A stretch of DNA of 64,000 bases from Escherichia phage UE-S5b: sequence record PP301341.1. One strand, given 5' to 3'. The position numbers were made by a program, and so were the translations under genes. The notes beneath the pieces were generated by a model, which was given only the letters and a program-made list of their open reading frames with translations, did no database searches and had not been told where the DNA came from. Positions 29,501-41,458 of this stretch are shown in pieces (position 1 is the first letter of the stretch; each line of letters opens with the position of its first letter).

Positions 29501-32500
29501 GGAAACAGTTTTCCCTGTCTATAACAATGACAAGACACCGAACCAGTTCCTGAAATCATTTACCCTGCCGGAAGAACCTAAGTCTCGCACCATTGGTTCT
29601 GAATCCCCTTTGACTGATATTAAGCAAGCACTGTCTTCTACTGCACGCTTTGAAGCATTCACTCAAAAAGAAAATAACGCTCTCACAAGTGATGTGATTA
29701 AGCGTTATCAGGACTTAATGGGCTTTGGTGAAACTCTGAAGACTACTCTGTCTGATCGTCTGGCTAAGTTTCTTGCTAATAAGAACGTTGGTAAACGCTT
29801 TGCAGAAGGCACAGAGGCTAACCGTTGGGTAGGTGGTAAGTTACTTAATATCGTAGAGAAAGACGGAGACACCTTTAAGTTCAATGACCAGTTGTTAGAG
29901 ACTGCTGTACTTGCTGGTCTGCAATGGCGACTGACTGCTACACAGAATGCTGCTGTTAAAGACATGAAAGATGTAGCTGCTATTACTGGAGTAGAAGCAT
30001 CCTTGTTACCTGAAGGTATCCTGGCTGAATTTGAGAATGCTCAGACTCTGGTTGAAGCTACTAACTCACTGGCTCAAAAGATTGAATCTTACTGGGGATT
30101 GAATCGTAATCCTAATGCACCACTGGGTTATACCAAAGGTATTCCAATGGCAATGGCTACAGAGATTCTGTCTTCTCTCATTGAGATGGGTGAAGTTAAA
30201 GAGTCTATGCTTGATGTGTCTGAGATTGACCCAGACTCTAATAAGACCGTCGGTCTGTATACCATTGAGAAGCTGGATGATAACGATGCCATTAACAAGT
30301 TCCCTACTGCTATCGAGGAAGCTGTTCTCGTAGAACCAGAAGAGAAAATGTACTTTGGTGATGATATTCCTTCCGTGGCTCAAACTCAGTTACGTAACCC
30401 TGCTGTTAAGAATACCCCAGAGCAGAAAGCTGCTCTTAAAGCAGAACAGGCTACCGAGTTCCGTGTACACATGCCGATGGTTAACTTCTATGAAGCATTA
30501 GGTCGTGACAACATTCTGGAACTGATGGGTGCTGGTACTCTTAATCCTGAACTGCTGAACGTGAACACTGCTAAGTCACTGGAGGGTAAAAACCTGTCAG
30601 TGTCTATGGCATATGATTCCCTGTTCGGTGTAATCAACCAGTTACAGGAACAGGAGAATGGTCTGGATACGCCTATTCACTATGGTTACAACATGACCCG
30701 TGTAGGTCGTATGCAGATGTTAGGTAAGAACAACCCACAGTCCAGCAAGCTGGTTCGTGAAGCAATTCTGCCAACCTTCTCTACTATCGACTTAAGTAAT
30801 GAAAACAGTCAGACGTTCTCTGATTTCCAGTTAGGTCTGTCTCAGGCATTAGGTATCAAGGTTCATAATATGTCCCGTGAAGCTATGTCTGAAAAACTGA
30901 CCAAAGCTCTGGAAGGTAATTTGAAACCTGCTGTTGATATGATGGTTGAGTTTGATAAGTCCGGGCACTTACCAGCCGATGCAGTAGATATTCTTAAGAC
31001 ATCTCTGGGTGGTGATAAATCATTCGTAGCTCTTATGGCTCTTATGGAGTATGCCCGTTACCTGAACAGTGATGACCGTGCCAACTTTAATACCCCACTG
31101 TACGTTGAAGCCGATGGTGTAACCAACGGACCAATCAACGCAATGGTATTAATGACTGGTGGTAAGTTCACTTCAGACTGGATTAAGAATACTGCTAAAG
31201 GTGGTCTGTTCTTCGGTAAAGCTGGTAAGACTATGAATGAACATCGTTCACAGGATGACAGTGTTGACCTGTATGAAGCATCTACCAATGGTCTGCAACA
31301 AGCACTTAATGAGTTACGTACTACTTACCGTAACAACGTTCCGGTTATGAACCAAATGAATCATCTTCAGAAGTTAATGGACCTGTTTATTAAAGACTTT
31401 AACCTGAATGAAGACGGTACTCTGGACCTGAAACGTGGTATCGCTAAAAACCCACTGACCATTACCATCTATGGTTCAGGTGCTCGTGGTATTGCTGGCA
31501 AGATGGTTAGTGCAATTACTGACACCATCTATGAACGATTCAGTGATGTTCTGCAAGCTCGTGCTGCTGACCCTAGTATTTCCCCAGCTATGGCAATGTT
31601 TGGTAAGGAGGCTGCGTCTGAGGCTGATGCTCAGGCTATGCTGGATACTTTCCTTACTTCTATGGAAGCACTGACTGGTAATGTTCCAGTTATGCGTAAA
31701 GGTGAATTGTCTATTCAACAGGTAGAAGGTGCTCTGACTGGTAAGTTAGACCCTCAGAAGTTTACCGTATCGGGTAATGCCCTGAAGAACTTACAAGAGA
31801 ACATGCTTCACCTGTTCGTTGAACCAATGCGTACTGGTATCCGGAATACTGTTGGGGAAGGTCTGATGCATTCTACTGAGAACTTGCAGAAGGCTACCCA
31901 GATTCAGTCTTTGGTTCTACAAGACATGTTCCAACAAGCAGTACAGGCTAAGCTGGCAGAAAAAGAAAAAGACCCAACCTGGAAGAAGGGTGATTTCTTA
32001 ACACAGAAAGAACTGAATGAAATTCAGGAATCATTGTCTCCACTGGCTCCAATGATTGAGACTGGTTCACAGACTTTCTATATTGCTGGTAGTGAGAATA
32101 CTGATGTTGCTAACCAGGTACTGGCTACCAACTTAGATGACCGTATGCGTGTGCCAATGAGCATCTATGCTCCTTCTCAGGCAGGCGTTGCAGGTATTCC
32201 ATTTATGACCATTGGCACTGGTGATGGCATGATGATGCAGACCCTTTCTACTATGAAAGGTGCTCCGAAGAATACCCTGAAAATCTTTGATGGTATGAAC
32301 ATTGGTATCAACAACATCACTGATGCAAGTCGTAAAGCTAACGAGGCTGTATACACTTCCTGGCAGGGTAACCCTATCAAGAATGTTTATGAGTCTTTTA
32401 CTAAGTTCATGAAGAACGTAGACTTCAGCAAACTATCTGATGAAACCAAACAGGCTATCGCTAAATCTGCTCTGGAATATGACCAGCGTGAAGGTGCTAC

Positions 32501-35500
32501 CGATGACCTGTTACGTGTTGGTGCTGAACAGATTGAACGTAACCTGCGTAATATTGCTCTGGGTGTAGATATTCGTCACAAAGTAATGAACCAGGTACAG
32601 ACTACTGTTGACCAGATGGCTGCTGTTGGTGCTCCTTATGTGAACAACGGTAAAATCTCTCTGGAAGGTCTGACCGTAGACCAACAAGTAGCTAAGCTAA
32701 ATGAACTGTTCGATGCTGAATTAAACAAACGTCGTGATGCAGTACGTGCTGCTAAAGTAGAACCAGTGAAAGAAGTGCCAGCAATGGAACAGGTTGGTCG
32801 TGTACTGAAGTCTGGTGTACGCCTACTGTCTAATACTGCTATCTCTAAGCTGGCTAAAGAGATGTCTCCGGAACAGCAAGCAGTACTGAAAGAAGTACAG
32901 AAATCCCTTGCTGCTAAAGACTATAAGGTTGTTTACGGTACACCTTCCCAACTGGATGCTTATGCTATTGAGAAGAATATTACTCGCCCAGCACCAGAAG
33001 ATATTGAAGCTGCTGAAGCTGGTAATGCGTATGGTTGGACTAACTTTGAAGATAAGACCATCTACTTAGTTACCCCTTCCTTAGAGACTCTGGTTCATGA
33101 ATTGGTGCATGCTTCTACTTTTGAATCTGTACTGGCTCACTATGAGGGTACTCCTAATGAAGCGGTCCAGAACATTGAAGACCTGATGAACCAGTTCCGT
33201 GCTCTGGATGTTAAGGATGAATCCCCGGCAGTTCGGGAAGCATATGCAGATGCTCTTAATACTATTAACGGTCATTTATCTAATGGCTTTATTGAGCCAG
33301 CAATGGCTAAAGCTGCTGCACTGAATGAGTACATGGCATGGGGTTTAACCAACCGTGAACTGATTAGTAAGCAGAAGAAAACCACTGCACTTAAGACTAT
33401 GGTTCAGGCTGTATATGAAGCAATTAAACGTCTGGTATTCGGGCGTAAGAAAGCACCAGCTAATGCAGATGATATGTTCTCTGGCTTACTGTTTAACTCG
33501 TCCGTAGTTATGCGTGGGCAAGCTCCTACTGCTGCTGTAGCCAAAGATACTACTCTGTTCCATAACAAAACGTATGGTGACAATACTCGTCTGGAAGAGC
33601 TAGGGAAAACCTTCGATAAACTGATTACTGACTACATTGGTTCTGAACCAGTACAGCAAGTAATTCGTAAAGGTAAGTTCTCTGATGCAGTGGTTAATGC
33701 GACTAAAGTAACTCGTGATGTTCAGGCTCATGGCTTCACTATGAATATGCAGGAACAACGTCTCTTTACTAACATTGTTGCTGCTCTGGCTACTGAGGCT
33801 GCTATTAATCCTGCTGCTCTGGCTCGTGCGCAGGAATACTACACACATGTTACTAAGAACCTGACCGTTGAGTCATTCATGNCTGACCCAGATAGTACTA
33901 ACCCTGCTGACCGTTACTATGCACAGCAGAAGTTCGATACCATCATGGGTGCTAACAACATTGAGTTTGATTCACAAGGTCGTTCCTCCTTACTGCCTAC
34001 CTTTATTGGTCTGGCGATGGTAAGTGAAGAGGTACGTAAAGTGCTGGCTGATATTCCAGTTATGAAAGTAGACAAGAAATCTGGCAATACCGCTGATGCA
34101 ATGCTGACTAACATCGGTACTGCTGCAATGGCTAGTCTGAATGCTCGTGTAGCAGGAGATACTAAAGCTACCAACGTACAGGAAGGTATGGATGCACTGG
34201 CTCAGACAATCATGCAGACCAGTCTTAATGCACAATCCTTCTATGATTCCGTTGCTACTCCTACGGGTAATGCTATTGATCGTGCTAACCAGTATCTGGT
34301 GGACTCTATTGATGTACTGTCTACCCGTGCTTTAGAAGGTGCTCGTGAAGTTGCAGCTAATACCAAGAACCCGTTGGTTAAAGGTGCTGCCCATGCTGCA
34401 CAATTAATAGCTGCTATTGCTACAGAGAAGAATGGTGCAATCGTAGCCGAAGGTGTTATGGCTGCAATGAACCAGGGTAAGGTATGGCAACCTTTCCATG
34501 ACCTGGTTAATGACTTAACTGGTCGTACTAAGAGCAATGCTTCTGTATATGATTTGATTAAAGCAGTGCGTGCACAGGTACAGGCTGACCGTCAACAGTT
34601 CCGTGAACATCTGCCCACCACTATTGCATCTAAGTTCAGCCGTAAGCTTACTAATGATGAGTGGAAAGCAATGCATACCGGTATGGGTAAAACCGACTTA
34701 GCTGTTCTGCGTGACACTATGTCTCTGGGTGAAATTCGTGACTTGCTGACTGACCAAAAGATTGTTGACCGTGAAGTGAATAAGCTGGAAGCAGATTTGC
34801 AGAAACAAGCAGGACGTAACTGGCCTTTGATTAGCCGTAAATCTAAGCAACTGGCTCAGTACATGATTAATGGCACAGTTGGTAATAACTTGCTGCGTAA
34901 TGCTACTGCAATCTCTCGTATGCTGGGTGAACGACAGGCTGCACGTTCTACTGTAGACGTAGCTCAACTGGATAAACTGATTACTCTGTATGCACTGGAA
35001 GCAATGAGTAAGACTGACCGTGAGATGTTATCTTCACTGGCTCAATCAGAGATTGAAGGCATGGACTTCGCTACTTCTTATCTGGTTGGTCAGCGTAAAG
35101 ATGAAATGGCTAAAGCCAAATCTGATACTCGTGCAACTCTGAACCAGTACAAAGGGTATATTCCTGGTGAGACTAAACAGGGTGTTAACTTGATTGTTGC
35201 TGAAGATAGTCAGTTTGCTGATTTGATTGAGAAGTCCTATGTACGTCTGGGTACTTATCAGGGTAGCTCTGCTAATCGTGGTCCAGCACGTAGCTACTAC
35301 TTTGCACCGGTACAGGCACAGGCTCCATTCTCGCAAGGTATCTTACAGAACGTTCGCAATACTGCTGGTGGTGTAGACCTTGGTACAGGCTTTACGATGG
35401 GTACAATGGTAGCTGGTCGTATCACTGACAAGCCTTCTGTAGACCGTATCACTAAAGCACTGGCTCGCGGTGAACGTGGTAATGAACCACTGCTGCCTGT

Positions 35501-36899
35501 ATATGATGATAAAGGCAATGTGGTTGCTTATGAGCAATCTATTGACCCTAACATGCTGAAGCACATTGAGGGTGAGAACCATCTCGCTCGTGCAATCGGT
35601 GTATGGCGTGGTCGTCAGGTAGAGGAAGCTAAGGCTCAGCGTTTCAACGATATGCTGATTGAGAACCTGCATAGCATGTATAAAAACGACATTAAAATGT
35701 CTGCCTCTAACAAGTCACAGTACGTTAACCTTCTTGGTTCTAAACTGGACCCAGTAACTGCTGATGCCCTTAAGCTGATGAACAGTGAAACTCGTCAGAA
35801 AGCAGAAAGTCTGTTTGGTCCTGGTGAGTTGTGGGTACGTCGTGACATGCTGAATGATGCACTGGGCTATCGTGCAGCTTCCGTAGGTGATGCCTGGTCT
35901 GGCAATTCTCGTTGGTCACCAGAAACACTGGATACCTTCAAGAAAGCTATGTTGGGTGTATTCGGCAACCGTGCTTATAAGTATGTAATGGGTGGTGAGA
36001 ACCTGGTTCAAAACTTAGTTAAAGAAGCCAAAACTCTGATTGTAGTTAAGTCAGTAGTTGTTCCTGCTGTTAACTTCCTGGCTAACCTTTACCAGATGGT
36101 TGGTCGTGGTGTACCTGTTAAGAACATTGCTAAGAGCATTCCACAGAAGACTGCTGAGATTAACCAGTACCTGAAATCTCGTCTGCGTCAGGTAGATGCA
36201 GAAGCAGANTTACGTGCAGCTACTAACCCGAACCAGATTCGTAAGCTTAAGGCTGAAATTCAGTCCATCACTGATAGTCATAAGCGTATGAGTATCTGGC
36301 CTCTGTTAGAAGCTGGTGAGTTTTCTTCAATTGCAGATGCTGGTATTGGACGAGATGACATCCTGATTACTGAAGGTAAACTTCACGAATACATGGATAA
36401 ACTGGCTGATAAGTTACCTAAGTCTGTACGTAATGCTGGACGTTATGCCCTTATCACCAAGGATACTGCTTTATTCCAGGGTATCCAGAAGACGGTTGAG
36501 TACTCTGACTTTATTGCTAAAGCAATCATCTATGATGATTTGACTCAGCGTAAAGGTAAGACTCGTGAAGAAGCACTTGGACGTGTAACGGAAGAGTTCA
36601 TTAACTATGACCGTCTGCCTGGTCGCTTCCGTGGGTATATGGAAAGTGTTGGTCTTATGTGGTTCTATAACTTTAAGATTCGTTCTGCAAAAATTGCAGT
36701 ATCCATGATTCGTAACAACCCGGTACACGCAGCTATGGCTATGTTGGCTCCAACTCCTACCATGTTTGGTAATGTTGGTTTACCTATTCAGGACAACATC
36801 TTCAGTATTGCTGCACAAGGCAATCTCGGTTACTCCTGGGGCTTCGGTCAGGGACTTCGTGCCCATAACCTTAACCCTTGGCTCAATCTAGCTAACTAA
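26529..36899 (+). CDS. giant virion-encapsidated RNA polymerase (N4 vRNAP-like)
   Basis: Single 3456-aa ORF; central region has a T7-class motif B with exact spacing R-x3-K-x7-YG (RGIAKNPLTITIYGSG, ~nt 31430) and a downstream motif-C-like KIFDGMNIG; lies at the end of the structural module as in N4-like phages. Confidence 0.85.
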   Translation: MNRKHAMSTFDRLAGFADSITNAKQVDVSTATSQKQAAQGQSPSQLTPENAYNLQTGRVGNLGIGAFEPGSLQADFTQASPLEILNKYGNEQGLQILNSRANAADAVRQDLSKQRTNAEAFGDTLSGVGLGVANTLGGIAALGTGLVNDNAGASIASGMDWLNEGVHNLQSDALNATRKVVQNQNQISAQKNQKLYEEDIKNGESSLVASLSRIGRDAFDSVANTLDNGMAATDGLSEGVGSLFTGGPLIRGVSALGKVMVGGDKAVKGITLAAELGSRPAQVALSAGRVAAPAIAIGGMEAGGAYQQTASEIMKMSHQELASKSPVYQQHIADGLSPDEARRQTASETGIIAAGLTAPVAAATGPLVSKFELNPLKVGSLAGAGSNMLRETVEEGIQSGTSQFAQNKAIQGNVDAKRDLLKGVGEQAGLGALYGFGSAGVAQAPGTTVKAVGASAGPALRTTLAGASLVGSALAKAASPITNILVQRGEEVAKRNEQASPVSDATVNAAAQEATAQAEQAQATVQEAVDAMDISPEEKAAATQYAADLTQAMKFDPVELEQANPAIREAVSGSTNRVEAIQKMADLVNTAEDPNVQMEAAIQMYDNIMSMDSFINRDPGALANLEQGSPAANIVDQFSGLMANVQNTPKVLRAFRAIHSMIQEQAEAGKLKATEEANQAQANNIAMAADMSPEVLDADSVNMVLKHASEGKITLGNRQRAALQSAAALLQGAREFDAKAEELGLRPQDIVSKQIKTDESRSNEGQYSALQHAKRIRSAYNSGNFDLASAYLDDFMKFAQHMQNKVGALNEHLISGNADKNKSVHYQALTPSREWVRSRTGLGVNPYDTKSVKFAQQVGLEAKTVADIANALATAYPELNVSHVKVTPLDSRLDKPAAQVVKEFRQGGLDATQSQQTNEPVNQVDETPAPAQETTTTVQPKAKPVVENKTVPVKEASSKAEEVSTTKSETVDATLTNEDTTQKVAETKTEMETVFPVYNNDKTPNQFLKSFTLPEEPKSRTIGSESPLTDIKQALSSTARFEAFTQKENNALTSDVIKRYQDLMGFGETLKTTLSDRLAKFLANKNVGKRFAEGTEANRWVGGKLLNIVEKDGDTFKFNDQLLETAVLAGLQWRLTATQNAAVKDMKDVAAITGVEASLLPEGILAEFENAQTLVEATNSLAQKIESYWGLNRNPNAPLGYTKGIPMAMATEILSSLIEMGEVKESMLDVSEIDPDSNKTVGLYTIEKLDDNDAINKFPTAIEEAVLVEPEEKMYFGDDIPSVAQTQLRNPAVKNTPEQKAALKAEQATEFRVHMPMVNFYEALGRDNILELMGAGTLNPELLNVNTAKSLEGKNLSVSMAYDSLFGVINQLQEQENGLDTPIHYGYNMTRVGRMQMLGKNNPQSSKLVREAILPTFSTIDLSNENSQTFSDFQLGLSQALGIKVHNMSREAMSEKLTKALEGNLKPAVDMMVEFDKSGHLPADAVDILKTSLGGDKSFVALMALMEYARYLNSDDRANFNTPLYVEADGVTNGPINAMVLMTGGKFTSDWIKNTAKGGLFFGKAGKTMNEHRSQDDSVDLYEASTNGLQQALNELRTTYRNNVPVMNQMNHLQKLMDLFIKDFNLNEDGTLDLKRGIAKNPLTITIYGSGARGIAGKMVSAITDTIYERFSDVLQARAADPSISPAMAMFGKEAASEADAQAMLDTFLTSMEALTGNVPVMRKGELSIQQVEGALTGKLDPQKFTVSGNALKNLQENMLHLFVEPMRTGIRNTVGEGLMHSTENLQKATQIQSLVLQDMFQQAVQAKLAEKEKDPTWKKGDFLTQKELNEIQESLSPLAPMIETGSQTFYIAGSENTDVANQVLATNLDDRMRVPMSIYAPSQAGVAGIPFMTIGTGDGMMMQTLSTMKGAPKNTLKIFDGMNIGINNITDASRKANEAVYTSWQGNPIKNVYESFTKFMKNVDFSKLSDETKQAIAKSALEYDQREGATDDLLRVGAEQIERNLRNIALGVDIRHKVMNQVQTTVDQMAAVGAPYVNNGKISLEGLTVDQQVAKLNELFDAELNKRRDAVRAAKVEPVKEVPAMEQVGRVLKSGVRLLSNTAISKLAKEMSPEQQAVLKEVQKSLAAKDYKVVYGTPSQLDAYAIEKNITRPAPEDIEAAEAGNAYGWTNFEDKTIYLVTPSLETLVHELVHASTFESVLAHYEGTPNEAVQNIEDLMNQFRALDVKDESPAVREAYADALNTINGHLSNGFIEPAMAKAAALNEYMAWGLTNRELISKQKKTTALKTMVQAVYEAIKRLVFGRKKAPANADDMFSGLLFNSSVVMRGQAPTAAVAKDTTLFHNKTYGDNTRLEELGKTFDKLITDYIGSEPVQQVIRKGKFSDAVVNATKVTRDVQAHGFTMNMQEQRLFTNIVAALATEAAINPAALARAQEYYTHVTKNLTVESFMXDPDSTNPADRYYAQQKFDTIMGANNIEFDSQGRSSLLPTFIGLAMVSEEVRKVLADIPVMKVDKKSGNTADAMLTNIGTAAMASLNARVAGDTKATNVQEGMDALAQTIMQTSLNAQSFYDSVATPTGNAIDRANQYLVDSIDVLSTRALEGAREVAANTKNPLVKGAAHAAQLIAAIATEKNGAIVAEGVMAAMNQGKVWQPFHDLVNDLTGRTKSNASVYDLIKAVRAQVQADRQQFREHLPTTIASKFSRKLTNDEWKAMHTGMGKTDLAVLRDTMSLGEIRDLLTDQKIVDREVNKLEADLQKQAGRNWPLISRKSKQLAQYMINGTVGNNLLRNATAISRMLGERQAARSTVDVAQLDKLITLYALEAMSKTDREMLSSLAQSEIEGMDFATSYLVGQRKDEMAKAKSDTRATLNQYKGYIPGETKQGVNLIVAEDSQFADLIEKSYVRLGTYQGSSANRGPARSYYFAPVQAQAPFSQGILQNVRNTAGGVDLGTGFTMGTMVAGRITDKPSVDRITKALARGERGNEPLLPVYDDKGNVVAYEQSIDPNMLKHIEGENHLARAIGVWRGRQVEEAKAQRFNDMLIENLHSMYKNDIKMSASNKSQYVNLLGSKLDPVTADALKLMNSETRQKAESLFGPGELWVRRDMLNDALGYRAASVGDAWSGNSRWSPETLDTFKKAMLGVFGNRAYKYVMGGENLVQNLVKEAKTLIVVKSVVVPAVNFLANLYQMVGRGVPVKNIAKSIPQKTAEINQYLKSRLRQVDAEAXLRAATNPNQIRKLKAEIQSITDSHKRMSIWPLLEAGEFSSIADAGIGRDDILITEGKLHEYMDKLADKLPKSVRNAGRYALITKDTALFQGIQKTVEYSDFIAKAIIYDDLTQRKGKTREEALGRVTEEFINYDRLPGRFRGYMESVGLMWFYNFKIRSAKIAVSMIRNNPVHAAMAMLAPTPTMFGNVGLPIQDNIFSIAAQGNLGYSWGFGQGLRAHNLNPWLNLAN

Positions 36900-37555: not shown

Positions 37556-37936
37556 TCAGATTGTACAACCACCACCATCACAGGTGTTGTTTTCTGCAAA
37601 GGAAGCCAGAGCTTTAGCAGTCTCTTCTTTCTCATGCAGTGCCTGACGTAGCAGGTAACCTTCTAATTCCCAAATCTTATTGAATGCATTTTCATATGCA
37701 TACTGACGGCCTTTTTGCTCATCATAGATAGCTGGGTCAACACAGGCAGATACACCTTCAACTTTGAAGCCATTTTCCAAGATGATAATGCAATAGGTTA
37801 TNAGACCCAGGTTAGCCAAATCATCTGCCGGGAGTGCAGATGGATCAACAAATGCAGACTTCACTGCATCAGCTCCATTAAAATAGTAGACGCTCTTAAT
37901 CTTAGCTTCGATTGCTTCTTTACTTACTGTTGCCAT
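37556..37936 (-). CDS. conserved phage protein, N4 gp49 / Sf6 gp66-family-like
   Basis: About 126 aa from MATVSKE; segment ...ENGFKVEGVSACVDPAIYDEQKGRQYAYENAFNKIWELEGY... resembles this family as recalled, and the gene sits next to the vRNAP terminus. Confidence 0.5.
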   Translation of the reverse strand: MATVSKEAIEAKIKSVYYFNGADAVKSAFVDPSALPADDLANLGXITYCIIILENGFKVEGVSACVDPAIYDEQKGRQYAYENAFNKIWELEGYLLRQALHEKEETAKALASFAENNTCDGGGCTI

Positions 37937-38105
37937 TATTAGCCTCATAGAGTGGTTTGAGTTTGTACTTAAACATGACTGCGTTGTTATAGGCTACGCT
38001 ACCTGCAAACACCAAAGACTTGCGTCCTCGATTATCCGTTACCTCATAGGCATACGGGGTTGAGATTAGGTCAATCATATTGATTATCCAATTATTAATA
38101 CTCAA
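37920..38105 (-). CDS. hypothetical small protein
   Basis: 61-aa ORF continuing the minus-strand operon. Confidence 0.3.
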   Translation of the reverse strand: MSINNWIINMIDLISTPYAYEVTDNRGRKSLVFAGSVAYNNAVMFKYKLKPLYEANNGNSK

Positions 38106-38386
38106 ATAAAAAAGTCCCCCAGAGTGACGGCTCCAGGGGACTTAGTACTATTTACCCATAGCTGGGAGGCTTTTGGTTCTTACCACGAAGACAGTCCACG
38201 CTGACNAGNCTTGGGATTGATAGTCCCGTTCCTGTGGTAATTACTCAGGCTAGGATTTAAGGAGTTCCTATTCTCCAGCGAAATTCCCGTCGANGGGAAT
38301 AACAATACAATAGCAGNCACTGGACTGTCTTACCAGTGTTGTCTTTAGAGTGCNATGCAATCAGGACTATGTTACTGCTGAATGGG

Positions 38387-38460
38387 TGTCCACTACTGGA
38401 TTTGAACCAGTGACTTTCCGATTATTAGTCGGTTGCTTTCCCCGTCTAAGCTAAGTGGAC
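38387..38460 (-). tRNA. tRNA (anticodon loop CUAAUAA; anticodon reads AAU, unusual, assignment uncertain)
   Basis: Reverse complement folds as a cloverleaf: perfect 7-bp acceptor stem GTCCACT/AGTGGAC, D-stem GCTT/AAGC, T-arm ACTGG-TTCAAAT-CCAGT; 74 nt. Confidence 0.6.
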
Positions 38461-38466
38461 TTATTA

Positions 38467-38542
38467 TGGTTACCCAGGCAGGATTCGAACCTGCGTCCTA
38501 GTTGGTTTACTAGTGGGGCTTTACCACTAAGCCTACTGGGTA
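38467..38542 (-). tRNA. tRNA with encoded CCA (anticodon unresolved; anticodon arm has a 6- or 8-nt loop, possible indel)
   Basis: Perfect 7-bp acceptor stem TACCCAG/CTGGGTA, D-arm GGCT-TAGTGGTAA-AGCC, T-arm GCAGG-TTCGAAT-CCTGC, 3' ACCA. Confidence 0.6.
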
Positions 38543-38842
38543 TTAATAGGGGAGTCATGCCAGGCTTTAACTGGCTCCTTCTTCGCAATCCTTACATACC
38601 CCTACATAATTATTGCGTTAAGCTTTTTTGTTTAAGTTTAAGTGAAGGCGTTCTTGCTGACTCATAATAGAGTGGGCGTTTGACGAATGACTAGTTCGTT
38701 ACTACCCGTTTGCCATAAGTACCTGGCGACTTTGGTTTGAGGTGGGAGTCCGAGTCCTGTACAGCCTTACCGTTCACACATTGGCAGCGTATCTAGAGTT
38801 GCACTTCCGGCAACTGGATTTAACTGTTACACCTCAAATAGG

Positions 38843-38954
38843 CAGTGGGGGATGGAATCGAACCATCAGTATTAAGTCTTATTCGTGCACCAAGCACGCT
38901 AGTAGATTACTCTACCGGAGGGAATCGAACCCTATCTACTTCACCAGACCCACC
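38843..38954 (-). ncRNA. long tRNA-like element (~112 nt) containing two T-arm-like motifs
   Basis: T-arm GATGG-TTCGATT-CCATC with a 3' acceptor strand CCCCACT; the only complementary 5' strand (GGTGGGT, 6 of 7 pairs) lies ~105 nt upstream; a second TTCGATT motif sits inside. Confidence 0.3.
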
Positions 38955-39039
38955 ATAATTCTTCCAATTTAGAGTAGCATTGTCACGGTGGGTGCTTTAA
39001 ATGCCGGGAAACATTTAAATATACAATGCTACTTTGAAT

Positions 39040-39163
39040 TGGTTATCAGTGAAGGATTCGAACCTCCGGTTGGAGTCTATAGCTTACCGCAGCAGCCCTC
39101 CAATCTAGCGGTGTCACACTTAGTCCAAACTTGAACATGTCAAGCCATCTCGTGCAACTGATA
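39040..39163 (-). ncRNA. long tRNA-like element (~121 nt) with perfect acceptor stem and encoded CCA
   Basis: T-arm GGAGG-TTCGAAT-CCTTC + ACTGATA-A-CCA; the perfectly complementary 5' strand TATCAGT is 114 nt upstream; internal 6-bp stem TTGGAG/CTCCAA. Confidence 0.35.
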
Positions 39164-39165
39164 AT

Positions 39166-39231
39166 TGGTTCCGGCGTCTGGACTCGAACCAGAACACTCA
39201 TGCCGTGCACGACACTAGTACCTACACCGGA
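39166..39231 (-). ncRNA. short tRNA-like element (~63 nt + CCA)
   Basis: Acceptor stem TCCGGTG/CGCCGGA (one G-U), T-arm TCTGG-TTCGAGT-CCAGA, encoded CCA, but only ~31 nt between acceptor and T-arm, too few for standard D and anticodon arms. Confidence 0.35.
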
Positions 39232-39298
39232 ATTAATTGCCAGGGATTCCACCTGGCTCCATCTGTTTTTATAGTCACTCAGATATCGTCTGGACTGT

Positions 39299-39376
39299 AG
39301 GCATGGGTGGGAATCGAACCCACAAACCATTCAGCACTGTAGCCTCACGCTCTACCTATTTGAGCTATCACATACC
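39299..39376 (-). tRNA. tRNA-like gene with canonical D-arm and T-arm but unresolved anticodon arm
   Basis: D-arm GCTC-AAATAGGTA-GAGC, T-arm GTGGG-TTCGATT-CCCAC, acceptor GGTATGT/CCATGCC (6 of 7 pairs); no clean 5-bp anticodon stem found. Confidence 0.4.
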
Positions 39377-39639
39377 ATTGATTAACTCCCCGTTTCTAAT
39401 ACATGGACGGGGACACTCCACGGTCGTTTGATAATCAGGACGACTCACTCCTGACTGACGCTTGGCTTATTAGGCTGCCATCAGAACAACATCATCGTTT
39501 GCATTTATGTTATTGGTTCGTTTCTAAAAAACCGCATAATCGCTTACGAAAACTATCAAAGAGTACACTAGCTCTGGGCCACGCTTGTGGANATCGGCCT
39601 ACCTTCCACAGCTAATCAACTAATGCACTCACTGATAGC

Positions 39640-39880
39640 CCATAATAGGGGGGAGGGGACGAATCCTCCCTTTATACCCTATATTGCATGTAAGATCTAA
39701 CAGTTCGATGTTGTAGGTAGCTAGGCTATCCGACATTTAACCCAGCCCATATAGGGGCTTATGTGATTAGAATGCTCAACATTGAGCGGTTAGTTTGATA
39801 AGGGATCTGAAGCCTTATCCTAAAGATACTAACCTTTGGGATATAGCCTAAGATTCAGAAATGGCCCCTATAGGAAGAGG
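39640..39880. repeat. three copies of a GC-flanked TATAGG motif (AGCCCATA(A)TAGGGG / GGCCCCTATAGGAAGAGG) in a non-coding region
   Basis: Seen at ~39641-39660, ~39742-39757 and ~39863-39878, spaced ~100-120 bp, all in the same orientation; CCCTATAGGG core is palindromic. Confidence 0.4.
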
Positions 39881-40903: not shown

Positions 40904-41458
40904 TTACGCCTTTATTAAATTAAGAAGGTTTTGGAAAGCTGGGAGATTTACACCAGCGTGGATTGCACCGATTGCATCTGCTAAGTGCTCATTCTTATTC
41001 AGAAGTTTACCTTTTTTATCTGTGAGCCAGTTGGCTTCTGGATAGATAGCATGGGCAGCACGAATCATCGTGTCTTTGGATGCAGTTTTATCACCGACCA
41101 GTGCAAGTTTATTTTCAATTGGGGATACTTCAAAGATTGGACAACCCAATGCACGAAATGCACCAATTAATCCTACGCATACGCCATAGGATTTCATACC
41201 GTTAGCAGACTGAGAGCCTACTGGTACTTCTACGAATACTGCTTTAGCAGACCGTAACCATTCTTCACAACCAAGAAACAAATCGTGAGCGGCTTGTATA
41301 TCTTTGGAGTTGGTTCGAACTTGTTTGTTGTGGTCAACTTCAGTTTGAACCAGTTTAAGTTCGACCTGCTCGAAGACGCCGGACTCAATGTCCAGCATCC
41401 CACGAGCTAAACCCCAATTGCGGAGACTAATGTCTGCACCAACAATTGGGATTTTCAT
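40904..41458 (-). CDS. RuvC-like Holliday junction resolvase
   Basis: 184 aa; MKIPIVGADISL (first-strand Asp), VFVEVPVGS (Glu), C-terminal HLADAIGAIHAG (Asp) fit the RuvC-fold catalytic layout. Confidence 0.55.
   Translation of the reverse strand: MKIPIVGADISLRNWGLARGMLDIESGVFEQVELKLVQTEVDHNKQVRTNSKDIQAAHDLFLGCEEWLRSAKAVFVEVPVGSQSANGMKSYGVCVGLIGAFRALGCPIFEVSPIENKLALVGDKTASKDTMIRAAHAIYPEANWLTDKKGKLLNKNEHLADAIGAIHAGVNLPAFQNLLNLIKA

What the first reader, a model, noticed from the sequence alone, without database searches (positions are those of the whole stretch)
38100..39400. tRNA cluster with non-canonical tRNA-like elements (112-nt and 121-nt long, 63-nt short)
Seven T-arm motifs (TTCGAAT / TTCAAAT / TTCGATT / TTCGAGT, all on the minus strand) occur in 1.3 kb. 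Two fold as normal tRNAs. The others have convincing acceptor stems and T-arms but wrong spacing: one has its perfectly complementary 5' strand 114 nt upstream with an encoded CCA, one is ~112 nt with a second T-arm-like motif inside, and one has only ~31 nt between acceptor and T-arm. The first tRNA's anticodon reads AAU, which is unusual. These could be intron-containing or otherwise structured tRNA-like RNAs, or canonical tRNAs damaged by assembly indels.
Basis: seen in the sequence. Interest (0 to 1): 0.6.

Follow-up and report, generated by a model that had tools for sequence, protein, structure and literature searches.

The report
Phage island of tRNA-like RNAs
A 1.6-kb non-coding stretch of an N4-like E. 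coli phage encodes two odd tRNAs and at least three conserved tRNA-shaped RNAs that cannot decode, and it sits next to a widespread, apparently undescribed phage RNA that carries a tmRNA-style tag message and an arm antisense to the host's tmRNA, which suggests that these phages tamper with ribosome rescue.

Summary
Six perfect T-arms lie on the minus strand within 0.9 kb; 0.46 are expected by chance in the whole window.

The window is a Gamaleyavirus (N4-like), 99.6% identical to phage UE-M6. Only two elements are cloverleaf tRNAs: tRNA-Ile(AAU), and one with a 6-nt anticodon loop.

The short (66 nt), long (124 nt) and two-T-arm (114 nt) elements are not assembly errors or intron-containing tRNAs. 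The same sequences recur in independent phage genomes. The short one is 100% identical in phage N4 and also occurs in an unrelated Klebsiella myophage. Compensatory base changes support every helix of the short and two-T-arm elements, and the acceptor stem, one inner hairpin and the T-arm of the long one.

All of them keep the acceptor/T-arm minihelix, and several encode CCA. The D and anticodon regions are lost or rebuilt. They are most likely excised by host tRNA-processing enzymes and punctuate a polycistronic RNA island. Their own function is unknown.

Just upstream (39638-39388) lies a module found in more than 500 enterobacterial phage genomes. It has a 10-codon tmRNA-like tag under coding selection, pseudoknots and no tRNA-like domain. 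Its 5' arm is antisense to host tmRNA nucleotides 68-106, which include the resume codon. I found no published description.

The parts
39645..39682 (-). E0: a minihelix. The acceptor-like stem ATAGGG/CCCTAT encloses the hairpin GGGAGG-ATTCGTCC-CCTCCC. It has no D or anticodon arms and no CCA.
   Evidence: Read from the sequence and from the RNAfold result. It is conserved at 90-100% identity in 10 Gamaleyavirus loci. In ECBP1 an extra 'tRNA-Ala(CGC)' follows it.
39388..39638 (-). Tag module (an anti-tmRNA plus surrogate-message RNA). Its sub-parts are: a 15-bp helix (39638-39624 with 39567-39553) capped by a variable pseudoknot-like insert; an antisense arm (39555-39525); the resume codon GCA (39502-39500); the tag ORF ANDDVVLMAA (39502-39473); stop codons TAA TAA (39472-39467); an H5-like helix; and two pseudoknots that end at 39388.
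   Evidence: - Rfam tmRNA_permuted gives 32.7 bits, below the gathering score of 47.
- All 138 copies examined encode 10-aa AN[DE].. tags.
- Variability by codon position is 3rd > 1st > 2nd, and the synonymous fraction is 0.435 against 0.228 expected.
- The H5-like helix and both pseudoknots covary: 13 compensatory pairs, 0 of 500 shuffles reach the observed value.
- The arm is antisense to E. coli ssrA nucleotides 68-106/107: nhmmer E=8.6e-7, blastn 32/42 identities with E=2e-4, and RNAduplex places all variants on ssrA 64-106/109 or beyond.
- 524 phage records hold the module.
39299..39376 (-). E1: a 78-nt cloverleaf-like element. It has a canonical D-arm and T-arm and a 6/7-paired acceptor stem. 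The anticodon stem is poorly paired around the loop CUACAGU ('ACA'). CCA is not encoded.
   Evidence: GenBank annotates it as tRNA-Cys in UE-M6. ARAGORN calls the ECBP1 copy tRNA-Cys(aca) but does not call the window copy. There is no Rfam tRNA hit even at E<=10. Only 3 distinct sequences are available, and their acceptor changes remain paired. The folding z-score is -0.67.
39233..39296 (-). E2up: a leader module. It consists of the stem AGUC/GACU followed by the hairpin GCCAGG-UGGAAUC-CCUGGC.
   Evidence: It is present in 28 loci. These include phages that lack E2 and ~47-kb siphophage contigs (L099, L163, L189). Stem changes are compensatory: AGUC/GACU in one group and AGAC/GUCU in another.
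39166..39231 (-). E2: a 66-nt tRNA-like RNA without a D-arm. It has a 7-bp acceptor stem, a 9-nt connector UAGGUACUA, and a 5-bp stem capped by GUGCAC. The cap is 6 nt here and 7 nt (GUGCACA) in Klebsiella phage copies. A T-arm, discriminator A73 and an encoded CCA follow.
   Evidence: 82 phage records hold it, and the N4 copy is 100% identical. A homolog occurs in the Klebsiella myophage 05F01. On alignment A1, 99.3% of cells are paired, 5 pairs show compensatory changes, and 0 of 500 shuffles reach the observed value. The minimum-free-energy fold closes the acceptor stem and T-arm, with z = -2.17. Neither ARAGORN nor Rfam calls it.
39040..39163 (-). E3: a 124-nt tRNA-like RNA. It has a 7-bp acceptor stem and an expanded D-side arm (a 5-bp helix holding the inner hairpin CUUGA-CAUGU-UCAAG). 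A 6-bp 'anticodon-side' stem carries a 22-nt structured cap. A T-arm, A73 and an encoded CCA follow.
   Evidence: On alignment A3, 99.6% of cells are paired and 5 pairs are compensatory; 3 of these are in the acceptor stem, which takes three different pair combinations. It is present in 11 loci. In L004, L015 and L020 it lies directly after the tag module.
38960..39039 (-). H34: a long-helix module (CAAAGTAGCATTGT ... ACAATGCTACTCTAAATTG) lying between E3 and E4.
   Evidence: RNAfold gives -21.5 kcal/mol. In L010, L012 and L217 the same kind of helix follows E2 directly. The shared 3'-strand motif ACTCT(T/A) and an internal mismatch recur in the helices that flank the tag modules.
38841..38954 (-). 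E4: a 114-nt tRNA-like RNA with five helices. A 6-bp acceptor stem encloses a hairpin with a T-loop sequence, a GUAA-capped hairpin, a hairpin with a 5-nt loop, and the true T-arm. The 3' tail is UGCC, so CCA is not encoded.
   Evidence: On alignment A2, 99.1% of cells are paired, and 13 compensatory pairs are spread over all 5 helices. 0 of 500 shuffles reach the observed value, and sliding the register collapses pairing to 41-56%. The minimum-free-energy fold gives the same structure.
38543..38840 (-). G45: a ~300-nt structured spacer. It contains a long helix (TATTTGAGGTG ... CACCTCAAA) and a second E2up-type hairpin (GGAGCCAG-UUAAAG-CCUGGCA, 38573-38553) just upstream of E5.
   Evidence: Read from the sequence and folded. 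It is conserved over its full length in 7 loci and in part in 11 more. This part was not analysed further.
38467..38542 (-). E5: a cloverleaf tRNA with a 6-nt anticodon loop (AAACCA), a 3-nt variable region and an encoded CCA. It is probably non-decoding.
   Evidence: ARAGORN reports 'tRNA-???' with anticodon (ac). Rfam tRNA gives 42.8 bits with the anticodon arm skipped. GenBank annotates it as 'tRNA-OTHER'. The 05F01 homolog keeps the acceptor, D and T arms but has a 9-nt loop.
38385..38460 (-). E6: a canonical cloverleaf tRNA-Ile with anticodon AAU (A34). CCA is not encoded.
   Evidence: Called by ARAGORN and by Rfam at 65.6 bits. AAU is kept in 7 N4-like copies. Related tRNAs in other phages carry CAU, and AAU arose again on a different backbone in L158.
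38102..38384 (-). E7: the conserved ~270-nt 3' segment of the island. It ends in an intrinsic terminator: a 13-bp stem (38143-38112) followed by a U-tract.
   Evidence: The terminator was found by the scan. The segment is conserved at 71-97% identity in 12 loci. It contains 5 N characters in the window and a 46-aa ORF (38180-38320), so it could be either coding or non-coding.

Best explanation
The minus strand from about 39.7 kb to 38.1 kb is a non-coding stable-RNA island of an N4-like phage. It ends at the intrinsic terminator at 38143-38112 and is presumably transcribed as one precursor.

SHOWN. The island holds one ordinary-shaped tRNA with an unusual anticodon (Ile-AAU) and one cloverleaf with a 6-nt anticodon loop. 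It also holds a degenerate cloverleaf (E1, 78 nt) and three genuine, evolutionarily conserved tRNA-like RNAs: E2 (66 nt, no D-arm), E3 (124 nt) and E4 (114 nt). Each keeps the coaxial acceptor/T-arm minihelix. E2 and E3 also keep discriminator A73 and encode CCA, followed by A/U-rich sequence. The D and anticodon parts have been deleted or rebuilt; in E2 and E4 the rebuilt parts form new helices that covary, while in E3 only one of them (the inner hairpin) varies at all. E2, E3 and E4 have no usable 7-nt anticodon loop in this phage, so they cannot decode.

INFERRED. The parts that are kept are the ones recognised by bacterial RNase P, by RNase E and the 3' exonucleases, and by the CCA-adding enzyme. 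The elements are therefore most likely cut out by the host tRNA-maturation machinery as discrete stable small RNAs. The same cuts would punctuate the precursor and release the neighbouring non-tRNA modules with defined ends. The first such module is an RNA with a tmRNA-like 10-codon tag and an arm antisense to host tmRNA.

NOT ESTABLISHED. What the released tRNA-like RNAs do themselves. The strict conservation of E2's interior implies a function of its own, for example as a non-decoding mimic that binds a tRNA- or tmRNA-handling host factor.
For: 1. The clustering is far beyond chance: 6 perfect T-arms on one strand within 0.9 kb, against 0.46 expected in the whole window.
2. The elements recur in independent genomes. 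261 phage records match the region, and 15 of them cover at least 80% of it. E2 with its leader occurs in 82 records and is 100% identical in N4, although the neighbouring RuvC-like protein is only 69% identical. A diverged E2 occurs in the unrelated myophage 05F01.
3. Covariation supports the folds. E2 has 5 compensatory pairs and 99.3% of cells paired. E4 has 13 compensatory pairs in all five helices. E3 has 5, three of them in the acceptor stem. For each, sliding the register collapses pairing to 23-56%.
4. Single-sequence folding independently closes the acceptor stem and T-arm in all six elements.
5. The ends carry processing signals. CCA is encoded in E2, E3 and E5 and is followed by AAU/AUA. 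The nucleotide at -1 is U in 4 of 6 elements (sequence). This fits the E. coli pathway, in which RNase E cuts 1-3 nt after CCA and RNase P cuts at +1 (PMC2190699). RNase P reads the acceptor/T-stem stack (PMC4919913). It already matures non-tRNA phage RNAs such as the P1/P7 C4 antisense RNA and M3 RNA (PMC11143913).
6. The layout is modular. In this phage and its relatives, non-tRNA structured modules alternate with tRNA or tRNA-like units and are shuffled between phages. N4 and other relatives have canonical tRNAs (Asn, Ser, Thr, Pro, Gln and others) at the same site.
Against: - There are no expression or processing data. Transcription as a single unit is inferred only from strand, spacing and one terminator.
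- Punctuation alone does not explain why E2's interior is invariant between N4 and Gamaleyaviruses, or why E4's three extra hairpins covary. Canonical tRNAs could do the punctuating.
- E1, E4 and E6 lack an encoded CCA.
- Thermodynamic z-scores are modest: E1 -0.67, E3 -0.17, E4 -1.43.
- The alignments contain only 8-9 distinct and related sequences. The shuffle control therefore overstates significance, and E3's inner helices are invariant and untested.
- E1 has only 3 distinct sequences, so it could be a decaying tRNA.
Confidence: 0.55

Rival explanations
1. Decoys or mimics. The tRNA-like RNAs are made to bind and titrate a host factor that handles tRNA or tmRNA, for example SmpB, EF-Tu, an aminoacyl-tRNA synthetase, the CCA-adding enzyme, a modification enzyme or a tRNA-targeting defence nuclease. 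Processing is only the means of producing them. This overlaps with the best explanation and adds a specific function to it.
For: - E2's interior, including the connector UAGGUACUA and the GUGCAC cap, is invariant or covaries over large phylogenetic distance.
- E2 lacks a D-stem, as the tRNA-like domain of tmRNA does.
- A tmRNA without a coding sequence, consisting of the tRNA-like domain only (~65 bp), is known from mycobacteriophage DS6A. It inhibits host tmRNA when expressed in E. coli (PMC11915505).
- The island also carries an anti-tmRNA module.
Against: - E2 has no G3:U70 alanine identity pair.
- The elements show no significant complementarity or similarity to host tmRNA.
- N4 has E2 but no tag module, so the two are not an obligate pair.
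- No binding partner can be tested with the available tools.
Confidence: 0.2
2. Decaying tRNA genes. The elements are pseudogenes left from a once-canonical tRNA cluster and have no function. The T-arm and acceptor stem merely decay last.
For: N4 and other relatives carry canonical tRNAs at the same position. E1 looks like a tRNA with a broken anticodon stem. Module content varies from phage to phage.
Against: Compensatory substitutions occur in every helix of E4 and E2, including helices that no tRNA has. E2 is 100% identical between genera whose flanking proteins are about 69% identical. E2 is also retained in an unrelated myophage. Lytic phage genomes seldom keep 1.3 kb of junk.
Confidence: 0.1
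3. Split phage tmRNA. One of the tRNA-like RNAs (E1, E2 or E3) is the acceptor piece that base-pairs with the adjacent tag module, as in the two-piece tmRNAs of alpha-proteobacteria, to form a complete phage tmRNA.
For: The elements are adjacent to the tag module. The module itself lacks any tRNA-like domain. In many phage families it is followed by non-canonical tRNA-like units, some with an encoded CCA. E2 has a connector in place of a D-stem, as a tmRNA tRNA-like domain does.
Against: - There is no significant complementarity between the tag module and E1-E7: the best score is 9.5 against a null median of 11.
- The downstream neighbour differs between phages: E1, E3, another tRNA-like unit, or a long helix.
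- 25 of 67 tag modules have no T-arm within 2.5 kb.
- N4 has E2 without the tag module.
- There is no G3:U70 pair.
- The module's arm matches host tmRNA instead.
Confidence: 0.07
4. Interrupted tRNAs. The elements are intron-containing or otherwise interrupted tRNAs that mature into canonical decoding tRNAs.
For: The long elements have correct acceptor and T arms, with extra sequence between them.
Against: - The insertions are not at position 37/38 and occupy both the D side and the anticodon side.
- They are too short (about 20-45 nt) for a group I intron.
- No Rfam intron family is detected.
- Removing them would not leave a D-arm or a 7-nt anticodon loop.
- In E2 and E4 the 'inserted' helices covary as parts of the fold. 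In E3 only the inner hairpin of the D-side arm does; its other extra helices are invariant.
Confidence: 0.03
5. Assembly or sequencing indels in canonical tRNA genes.
For: The window contains 65 N characters, so the assembly is not polished.
Against: No N lies inside E1-E6. Identical or near-identical sequences are found in more than 10 independently sequenced phages from different countries and laboratories. The differences between them are compensatory, not frameshift-like.
Confidence: 0.01

Closest known systems
[quoted passage not shown]
   Same: They are small non-decoding RNAs embedded among phage tRNA genes. They are co-transcribed with the tRNAs and matured by host tRNA-processing enzymes. 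Their function is still unknown.
   Different: The sequences and architectures are unrelated. The elements here include a 66-nt form without a D-arm and 114-124-nt forms with extra arms. They are interleaved with long helices and with an anti-tmRNA tag module. No homology to the T4 RNAs was tested.
tRNA-like processing signals: plant mitochondrial t-elements (PMC1920247), the mitochondrial tRNA punctuation model, and MALAT1/mascRNA (the last two from my own knowledge)
   Same: An acceptor/T-arm mimic without decoding ability is recognised by RNase P or RNase Z, and this defines the ends of adjacent transcripts. That is the mechanism I infer here.
   Different: Those systems are organellar or eukaryotic. 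Here the host would be E. coli, and the released neighbours are non-coding RNAs of a lytic phage. The interiors of E2 and E4 are conserved beyond what a processing signal needs.
The tRNA-like domain of tmRNA, and the tmRNA without a coding sequence from mycobacteriophage DS6A (PMC11915505)
   Same: E2 is about 66 nt. It has an acceptor stem, a T-arm, an unpaired connector in place of a D-stem, a short closed helix in place of a decoding arm, and A73-CCA. DS6A shows that phages do deploy RNAs consisting only of the tRNA-like domain against host trans-translation.
   Different: E2 lacks the G3:U70 alanine identity pair and the conserved tmRNA D-loop and T-loop sequences. It gets no Rfam tmRNA hit.
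D-armless mitochondrial tRNAs of metazoans, such as mt tRNA-Ser(AGY) (own knowledge)
   Same: The D-arm is replaced by a short connector, while the acceptor, anticodon-type and T arms are kept. The Klebsiella-phage copies of E2 even have a 5-bp stem with a 7-nt loop G-U-GCA-C-A.
   Different: The window and N4 copies have a 6-nt loop, position 37 is C, and the discriminator is A, not the U73 that CysRS needs. No bacterial or phage tRNA without a D-arm is known to decode.
Two-piece (circularly permuted) tmRNA (RF04321, RF01849-51; PMC11915505), compared with the adjacent tag module
   Same: Both have a resume-codon context ...AUAAAU|GCA AAC GA.., a 10-codon AN(D/E)... tag ending in A/V-A, stop codons in an H5-like helix, and downstream pseudoknots.
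   Different: The tag module has no acceptor or T-arm piece and no partner piece. It scores below the Rfam gathering threshold (32.7 against 47). It carries a ~31-nt arm (up to ~40 nt in other copies) antisense to host tmRNA, which no tmRNA has.
Phage trans-acting antisense RNAs matured by RNase P, such as the C4 RNA of P1/P7 (PMC11143913)
   Same: Both are phage-encoded antisense arms embedded in a processed precursor.
   Different: C4 targets a phage mRNA (ant/icd). The target here would be host tmRNA, and the RNA also carries a translatable tag.

Membership tests
Canonical tRNA (Rfam RF00005 / ARAGORN cloverleaf) | Scores above the family threshold, with acceptor, D, anticodon and T arms at standard spacing | tested here: not met
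   E1, E2, E3 and E4 get no RF00005 hit even at E<=10 and no ARAGORN call in the window. E6 (65.6 bits) and E5 (42.8 bits) do pass.
Canonical tRNA (Rfam RF00005 / ARAGORN cloverleaf) | A 7-nt anticodon loop with U33 and a readable anticodon | tested here: not met
   E5 has a 6-nt loop, AAACCA. E2 has a 6-nt cap, GUGCAC, in the window. E3 and E4 have no such loop. Only E6 (CUAAUAA) meets the criterion.
Intron-containing tRNA | An insertion at or near position 37/38 that is removable to leave a canonical tRNA, or a group I intron fold | tested here: not met
   There is no intron family in the Rfam scans. The extra sequence lies on both the D side and the anticodon side. It forms covarying helices in E2 and E4 and in the inner hairpin of E3.
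tmRNA (standard, RF00023), applied to the tag module 39638-39388 | A tag reading frame with a resume codon and no start codon, under coding selection | tested here: met
   The frame is GCA AAC GAT GAT GTT GTT CTG ATG GCA GCC TAA TAA, with an in-frame TAG 8 codons upstream and no start codon. All 138 copies encode 10-aa tags. The variability pattern is that of a coding sequence.
tmRNA (standard, RF00023), applied to the tag module 39638-39388 | A tRNA-like domain: acceptor stem with G3:U70, T-arm and 3' CCA in the same RNA or in a paired piece | tested here: not met
   There is no T-arm or acceptor stem within the module. ARAGORN finds no tmRNA in the window, in its 20 N4-like relatives, or in 60 loci that carry the module. 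25 of 67 copies have no T-arm within 2.5 kb. The module is not complementary to the phage tRNA-like RNAs.
tmRNA (permuted, RF04321) | Reaches the Rfam gathering score | tested here: not met
   It scores 32.7 bits against a gathering score of 47, and the aligned part is essentially the single-stranded tag region only. Nothing reaches gathering score in the P1, HK620, Vi01-like or Moazamivirus copies.
tRNA-like domain of tmRNA / tmRNA without a coding sequence (DS6A type), applied to E2 | The G3:U70 alanine identity pair and the tmRNA-type D-loop/T-loop signature | tested here: not met
   The E2 acceptor stem is U1-A72, C2-G71, C3-G70, G4-C69, G5-C68, U6.G67, G7-C66. It gets no tmRNA model hit.
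tRNA-like domain of tmRNA / tmRNA without a coding sequence (DS6A type), applied to E2 | Binding to SmpB and aminoacylation | not testable with these tools
   This needs biochemistry.
YrlA / bacterial Y RNA (RF02553) | Gathering score, with a Ro-binding stem plus a tRNA-like module | tested here: not met
   The only hit scores 17.3 bits against a gathering score of 69. It spans the T-arm of E5 and the D-arm of E6, so it is an artefact of two adjacent tRNAs.
RNase P / tRNA-processing substrate (functional class) | An acceptor stem stacked on a T-arm (about a 12-bp minihelix), a 3' RCCA, and a U at -1 | tested here: met
   The minihelix is present and covaries in E2, E3 and E4. ACCA is encoded in E2, E3 and E5. 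The -1 nucleotide is U in E1-E4. Actual cleavage was not tested.

The most novel reading that the evidence does not exclude
The island is a phage toolkit for taking over bacterial ribosome rescue. The tag RNA (39638-39388) anneals through its ~31-nt arm (up to ~40 nt in other copies) to host tmRNA nucleotides 68-106. This stretch covers the 3' half of pseudoknot 1, the frame-setting sequence, the resume codon and codons 1-5. Annealing silences the host message. It also presents the phage's own resume codon and 10-codon tag beside the host tRNA-like domain and SmpB, so that stalled ribosomes add a phage-specified tag (...LMAA, ...MVAA or ...LAVA instead of ...YALAA). The co-encoded non-decoding tRNA-like RNAs, E2 above all, both release this RNA by RNase P punctuation and act as mimics of tRNA or of the tmRNA tRNA-like domain in the same pathway. 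This would be the first trans-acting 'message graft' onto tmRNA, and a new class of phage counter-measure. The tag module is present in more than 500 enterobacterial phage genomes, including P1 and HK620; the tRNA-like RNAs described here have a narrower range.
Probability: 0.3. Interest if true: 0.95.

Novelty: new variant of a known kind. Interest (0 to 1): 0.8.

Why it matters
1. Phage tRNA clusters are usually read as codon-supply devices, and whatever ARAGORN or tRNAscan misses is left unannotated. Here about 1.3 kb of 'empty' DNA holds at least three conserved structured RNAs that keep only the tRNA processing handle. One is a 66-nt form without a D-arm, shared by N4, Gamaleyaviruses, Kaypoctaviruses and an unrelated myophage. 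This extends the old and unsolved problem of the T4 'species 1/2' RNAs to another phage family. It also provides covariation-backed models that can be tested.

2. Following the cluster upstream revealed a module that is currently unannotated: 'none' under the match in RefSeq E. coli genomes and no Rfam family. I found no description of it in eight full-text searches. It combines a tag under coding selection with an arm antisense to host tmRNA.

3. If that module works as proposed, it makes a concrete question testable: whether phages reprogram or block trans-translation, and how. The predictions are simple, namely phage-specific C-terminal tags and a duplex between tmRNA and the phage RNA. It would also matter for phages used in the laboratory and in therapy, such as P1, HK620, N4-like and Vi01-like phages.

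Tried and rejected
- tmRNA detection. ARAGORN in tmRNA mode was run on the window, 20 relatives and 60 further loci, and found no tmRNA.
- Rfam. At gathering score on the window and on six other phage loci it found only tRNAs. The permissive scan gave only sub-threshold tmRNA_permuted, alpha_tmRNA, His_leader, YrlA and Plastid-ycf2 hits. The last is the antisense image of a tRNA.
- Similarity of the tRNA-like elements to host tmRNA. A sense-strand blastn of ssrA against the region, and an ungapped complementarity scan of 39394-38100 against ssrA, found nothing above the shuffled null. The adjacent 9-mers TCGACGGGA and GGAATTTCG in E7, which equal ssrA 17-25 and 324-332, are most likely chance.
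- Pairing between the tag module and E1-E7 (the two-piece tmRNA idea). Nothing rose above the null.
- A TYMV-style reading of the module's 3' pseudoknot as an aminoacylatable acceptor mimic. I rejected this because stem 2 varies from 4 to 9 bp between copies and the following ACCA is present only in some N4-like copies.
- Whole-length RNAduplex of the module against ssrA. This was uninformative because it extends through the whole molecule, and one run timed out. I replaced it with arm-only duplexes, blastn and nhmmer.
- A comparative test of arm/host-tmRNA covariation. It was not possible. The one genome-contig scan found the module in only 4 species representatives, all of them enterobacterial or probable contamination, and the target region of tmRNA is conserved in these hosts.
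- Literature. Eight full-text searches (N4-like + tRNA-like; phage tmRNA; Schitoviridae tRNA; tmRNA + N4-like; tmRNA + permuted + phage; tmRNA-like + phage; the tag peptides themselves; tmRNA + base-pairing + phage + sRNA) found no description. The supplements of the tmRNA database paper did not list phage entries by name. The T4 genome review could not be opened.

Full report
WHAT THE WINDOW IS. The window is an N4-like podophage. It carries a 3456-aa virion RNA polymerase ORF (26529-36899). The queried region is 99.6% identical to Escherichia phage UE-M6 (Schitoviridae, Gamaleyavirus) and 86-99% identical to UE-M3, UE-S5a, PBM-2/3, ECBP1, Bp4 and PhAPEC5/7. The finding lies in a non-coding stretch of about 1.6 kb on the minus strand, bounded by small ORFs downstream of a RuvC-like gene (40904-41458) and by small ORFs at 37556-38105.

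CHECK OF THE OBSERVATION. A mechanical scan for TTCRANT flanked by five base pairs finds six perfect T-arms. All are on the minus strand between 38406 and 39318, and there are none elsewhere on either strand of the 64 kb. About 0.46 are expected by chance. A seventh motif, with four of five pairs, lies inside the 114-nt element. ARAGORN and Rfam call only two tRNAs. None of the window's 65 N characters lies inside them.

THE TWO CLOVERLEAVES. E6 (38460-38385) is a regular tRNA-Ile with anticodon AAU (65.6 bits). The AAU is kept in seven N4-like copies. Homologous tRNAs in other phages carry CAU (the Ile2/Met type). AAU also appears on a different backbone in locus L158, so the C34-to-A change seems to have arisen more than once. 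From my own knowledge, A34 is otherwise confined to tRNA-Arg(ACG) in bacteria. Whether A34 is deaminated here cannot be told from sequence. E5 (38542-38467) has normal acceptor, D and T arms and an encoded CCA. Its anticodon loop has only 6 nt and its variable region only 3 nt. Its homolog in Klebsiella phage 05F01 keeps the frame but has a 9-nt loop. It is probably not a decoding tRNA.

THE NON-CANONICAL ELEMENTS ARE REAL RNAS. They are not artefacts.

E2 (39231-39166, 66 nt) has a 7-bp acceptor stem, a 9-nt connector in place of the D-arm, and a 5-bp stem capped by GUGCAC(A). A T-arm, A73 and CCA follow. E2 and the hairpin module in front of it occur in 82 phage records and are 100% identical over 103 nt in phage N4. 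The neighbouring RuvC-like protein of N4 is only 69% identical. A diverged copy sits in the unrelated myophage 05F01. Across nine distinct sequences, 99.3% of cells are paired and five pairs change on both sides. Position 6:67 is always a wobble pair, U.G or C.A.

E4 (38954-38841, 114 nt) has five helices: an acceptor stem, a hairpin with a T-loop sequence, a GUAA hairpin, a hairpin with a 5-nt loop, and the true T-arm. Thirteen compensatory pairs are spread over all five helices.

E3 (39163-39040, 124 nt) has an acceptor stem that takes three different compensatory states. It also has an expanded D-side arm, an expanded anticodon-side arm, a T-arm and ACCA.

E1 (39376-39299) is a cloverleaf with a degenerate anticodon stem. 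Only three distinct sequences are available, so it may be decaying.

For E2, E3 and E4, shifting the register by one to three columns collapses pairing to 23-56%. Single-sequence folding closes the acceptor stem and T-arm in every element, although the z-scores are modest.

Independent sequencing of the same sequences in many laboratories excludes assembly indels. The location, the short length and (where the sequences vary) the covariation of the extra sequence exclude introns.

CONTEXT. N4 and several relatives carry canonical tRNAs at the same site: Asn, Ser, Thr, Pro, Gln, Tyr, Asp and Gly. The island is therefore a remodelled tRNA cluster. Its modules are shuffled among phages. tRNA or tRNA-like units alternate with non-tRNA structured modules. 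These are long helices with a recurrent 3'-strand motif and an internal U.U mismatch, and the E2up hairpin module, which also occurs in ~47-kb siphophages. The island ends in a strong intrinsic terminator at 38143-38112.

THE NEIGHBOUR THAT CHANGES THE PICTURE. A permissive Rfam scan gave a sub-threshold tmRNA_permuted hit at 39572-39470. The sequence reads ...AACAUAAAU GCA AAC GAU GAU GUU GUU CUG AUG GCA GCC UAA UAA, which translates to ANDDVVLMAA. It has no start codon and has an in-frame stop eight codons upstream.

The module spans 39638-39388. It recurs in 524 phage records, including N4-like, P1-like, P22-like HK620, Ackermannviridae, Moazamivirus and ~46-kb siphophages. It also occurs in 135 of 5426 complete E. 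coli genomes, where it is unannotated, and in 138 copies fetched from IMG/VR and the other loci held.

Every copy encodes exactly ten residues, AN[DE][DEN]xx[LM]x[AV]A. Variability is highest at third codon positions (entropy 0.91, against 0.61 and 0.39 at first and second positions). The synonymous fraction is twice the random expectation. Downstream lie an H5-like helix enclosing the stop codon and two pseudoknots, supported by 13 compensatory pairs in 56 sequences.

There is no tRNA-like domain. ARAGORN finds no tmRNA in 60 loci. 25 of 67 copies have no T-arm within 2.5 kb. The module is not complementary to the phage's tRNA-like RNAs.

Instead, the most conserved segment is the arm immediately 5' of the resume region: GGUUUUCGU..GCGAC..UUUGCGGUUUUUUA (31 nt, 39555-39525, in this window; up to about 40 nt in other copies). 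It is antisense to E. coli tmRNA nucleotides 68-106. This stretch covers the 3' half of pseudoknot 1, the upstream determinant, the resume codon G90 and codons 1-5.
- A profile search places the arm on the minus strand of ssrA at 107-68, with E=8.6e-7.
- One variant aligns with 32/42 identities, E=2e-4.
- Seven diverse variants all select the same site, starting at ssrA 64 and covering 64-106/109 (two duplexes run further 3'), at -34 to -43 kcal/mol.
- Variants differ by deletions in the U-run and by point changes, and they remain complementary in a shifted register.
- The module's own tag codons (GAU GAU GUU) differ from the host's (GAC GAA AAC) exactly where the arm pairs. The arm is therefore specific for the host RNA.

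I found no Rfam family and no paper that describes this module.

HOW IT MOST LIKELY WORKS. It is shown that the tRNA-like RNAs are conserved folds that keep the acceptor/T-arm minihelix, and that E2, E3 and E5 also encode CCA followed by A/U-rich sequence. It is inferred that these are the determinants read by RNase P, by RNase E and the exonucleases, and by the CCA-adding enzyme (PMC2190699, PMC4919913, PMC11143913). On that basis the elements are excised as stable RNAs, and the same cuts punctuate the precursor and give the interleaved modules, including the tag RNA, defined ends. Plant mitochondrial t-elements work this way (PMC1920247), and RNase P already matures the P1 C4 antisense RNA (PMC11143913). 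I put this at about 0.55.

The invariant interior of E2 and the covarying extra hairpins of E4 imply further functions that I cannot name. A mimic or decoy role is the leading idea, at about 0.2. The precedent is the tmRNA of phage DS6A, which lacks a coding sequence (PMC11915505).

For the tag RNA, the evidence supports base-pairing to host tmRNA. It does not decide whether the result is plain inhibition of trans-translation or substitution of the phage tag. The coding-type selection on the tag favours substitution.

COMPARISON WITH KNOWN FAMILIES. E1-E4 fail the tRNA models. The tag module fails the defining tRNA-like-domain test for tmRNA and the Rfam thresholds. E2 lacks the G3:U70 pair of tmRNA tRNA-like domains. 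The YrlA hit is an artefact.

The closest analogues are the T-even tRNA-like stable RNAs, organellar tRNA-like punctuation signals, tmRNA tRNA-like domains without a coding sequence, and mitochondrial tRNAs without a D-arm. The elements resemble these in how they would work. They are members of none.

VERDICT. As a set of tRNA-like RNAs it is a new variant of a known kind. The adjacent anti-tmRNA tag RNA may be categorically new. All functional statements remain inferences from sequence.

Noticed in passing
window 39388-39638 (-); also L089 (P1, AF234172 ~68.9 kb), L090 (HK620 ~15.8 kb), L091-L208, L210, L211: A widespread phage RNA module has a 10-codon tmRNA-like tag, an H5-like helix, two pseudoknots and no tRNA-like domain. 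Its 5' arm is antisense to host tmRNA nucleotides 68-106. In P1 it lies between the dicF-like region and tRNA-Asn/Thr in the ban operon leader. In HK620 it lies between qut and tQ.
   Followed up: yes
window 38102-38384 (-): E7 is a conserved ~270-nt 3' segment of the island that ends in a 13-bp terminator. It holds five N characters and a 46-aa ORF (38180-38320). It also has a hairpin, AUUCCCUUCGACGGGAAU, whose halves equal E. coli tmRNA nucleotides 17-25 and 324-332; this is probably chance.
   Followed up: partly
window 39624-39638 with 39553-39567; 38960-39039; ~38736-38838; L090, L099, L113, L163: Long helices of about 15 bp recur with a 3'-strand motif (TGTACTCTTTG / TGCTCTTTCC / TGCTACTCTAA) and a conserved internal U.U mismatch. 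They flank modules throughout these islands. They may be RNase III or protein-binding sites.
   Followed up: partly
window 39236-39257 and 38553-38573 (-): The hairpin GGAGCCAGG-UGGAAUC-CCUGGCA upstream of E2 recurs as GGAGCCAG-UUAAAG-CCUGGCA upstream of E5. The E2up module also occurs without E2 and in unrelated ~47-kb siphophage contigs (L099, L163, L189).
   Followed up: partly
L099, L113, L163, L090, L010: A second family of tRNA-like units has the acceptor stem GUGGUGA/UCACCAC-A-ACA. Its T-arm is either canonical or replaced by CCGG-AGAACAGCA-CCGG. Each unit is preceded by a long helix, CACAACAGGTAAGAGCA...TGCTCTTTCCGTTGTG.
   Followed up: no
L210 (Ackermannviridae, 2170-2520) and L211 (Moazamivirus, 2170-2340): The tag modules in these large phages are also followed by uncalled tRNA-like units of about 85-125 nt. 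Some have an encoded CCA, and one has a 14-bp 'acceptor' stem.
   Followed up: no
L119: 9535-9610: ARAGORN calls a 'tRNA-Pyl (cta)', that is, a tRNA of amber-suppressor type, in the cluster of a 70,408-bp N4-like Klebsiella phage contig.
   Followed up: no
L158: 4028-4104 and window 38385-38460: The anticodon AAU (A34) appears on two different phage tRNA backbones whose siblings carry CAU. This suggests a recurrent C34-to-A change in Ile2/Met-type phage tRNAs.
   Followed up: partly
window, whole: 65 isolated N characters are scattered through the window (for example 38206, 38209, 38294, 38317, 38354 and 39592). The near-identical record PP301343 has defined bases at the positions compared.
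   Followed up: yes
window 26529-36899 (+); L213: There are annotation errors in public records. PP301343 labels the 3456-aa virion RNA polymerase 'DNA polymerase'. OY978778 lays 'RIIA/RIIB lysis inhibitor' pseudogenes across the non-coding RNA island. Bas96 annotates seven short 'hypothetical proteins' over it.
   Followed up: no
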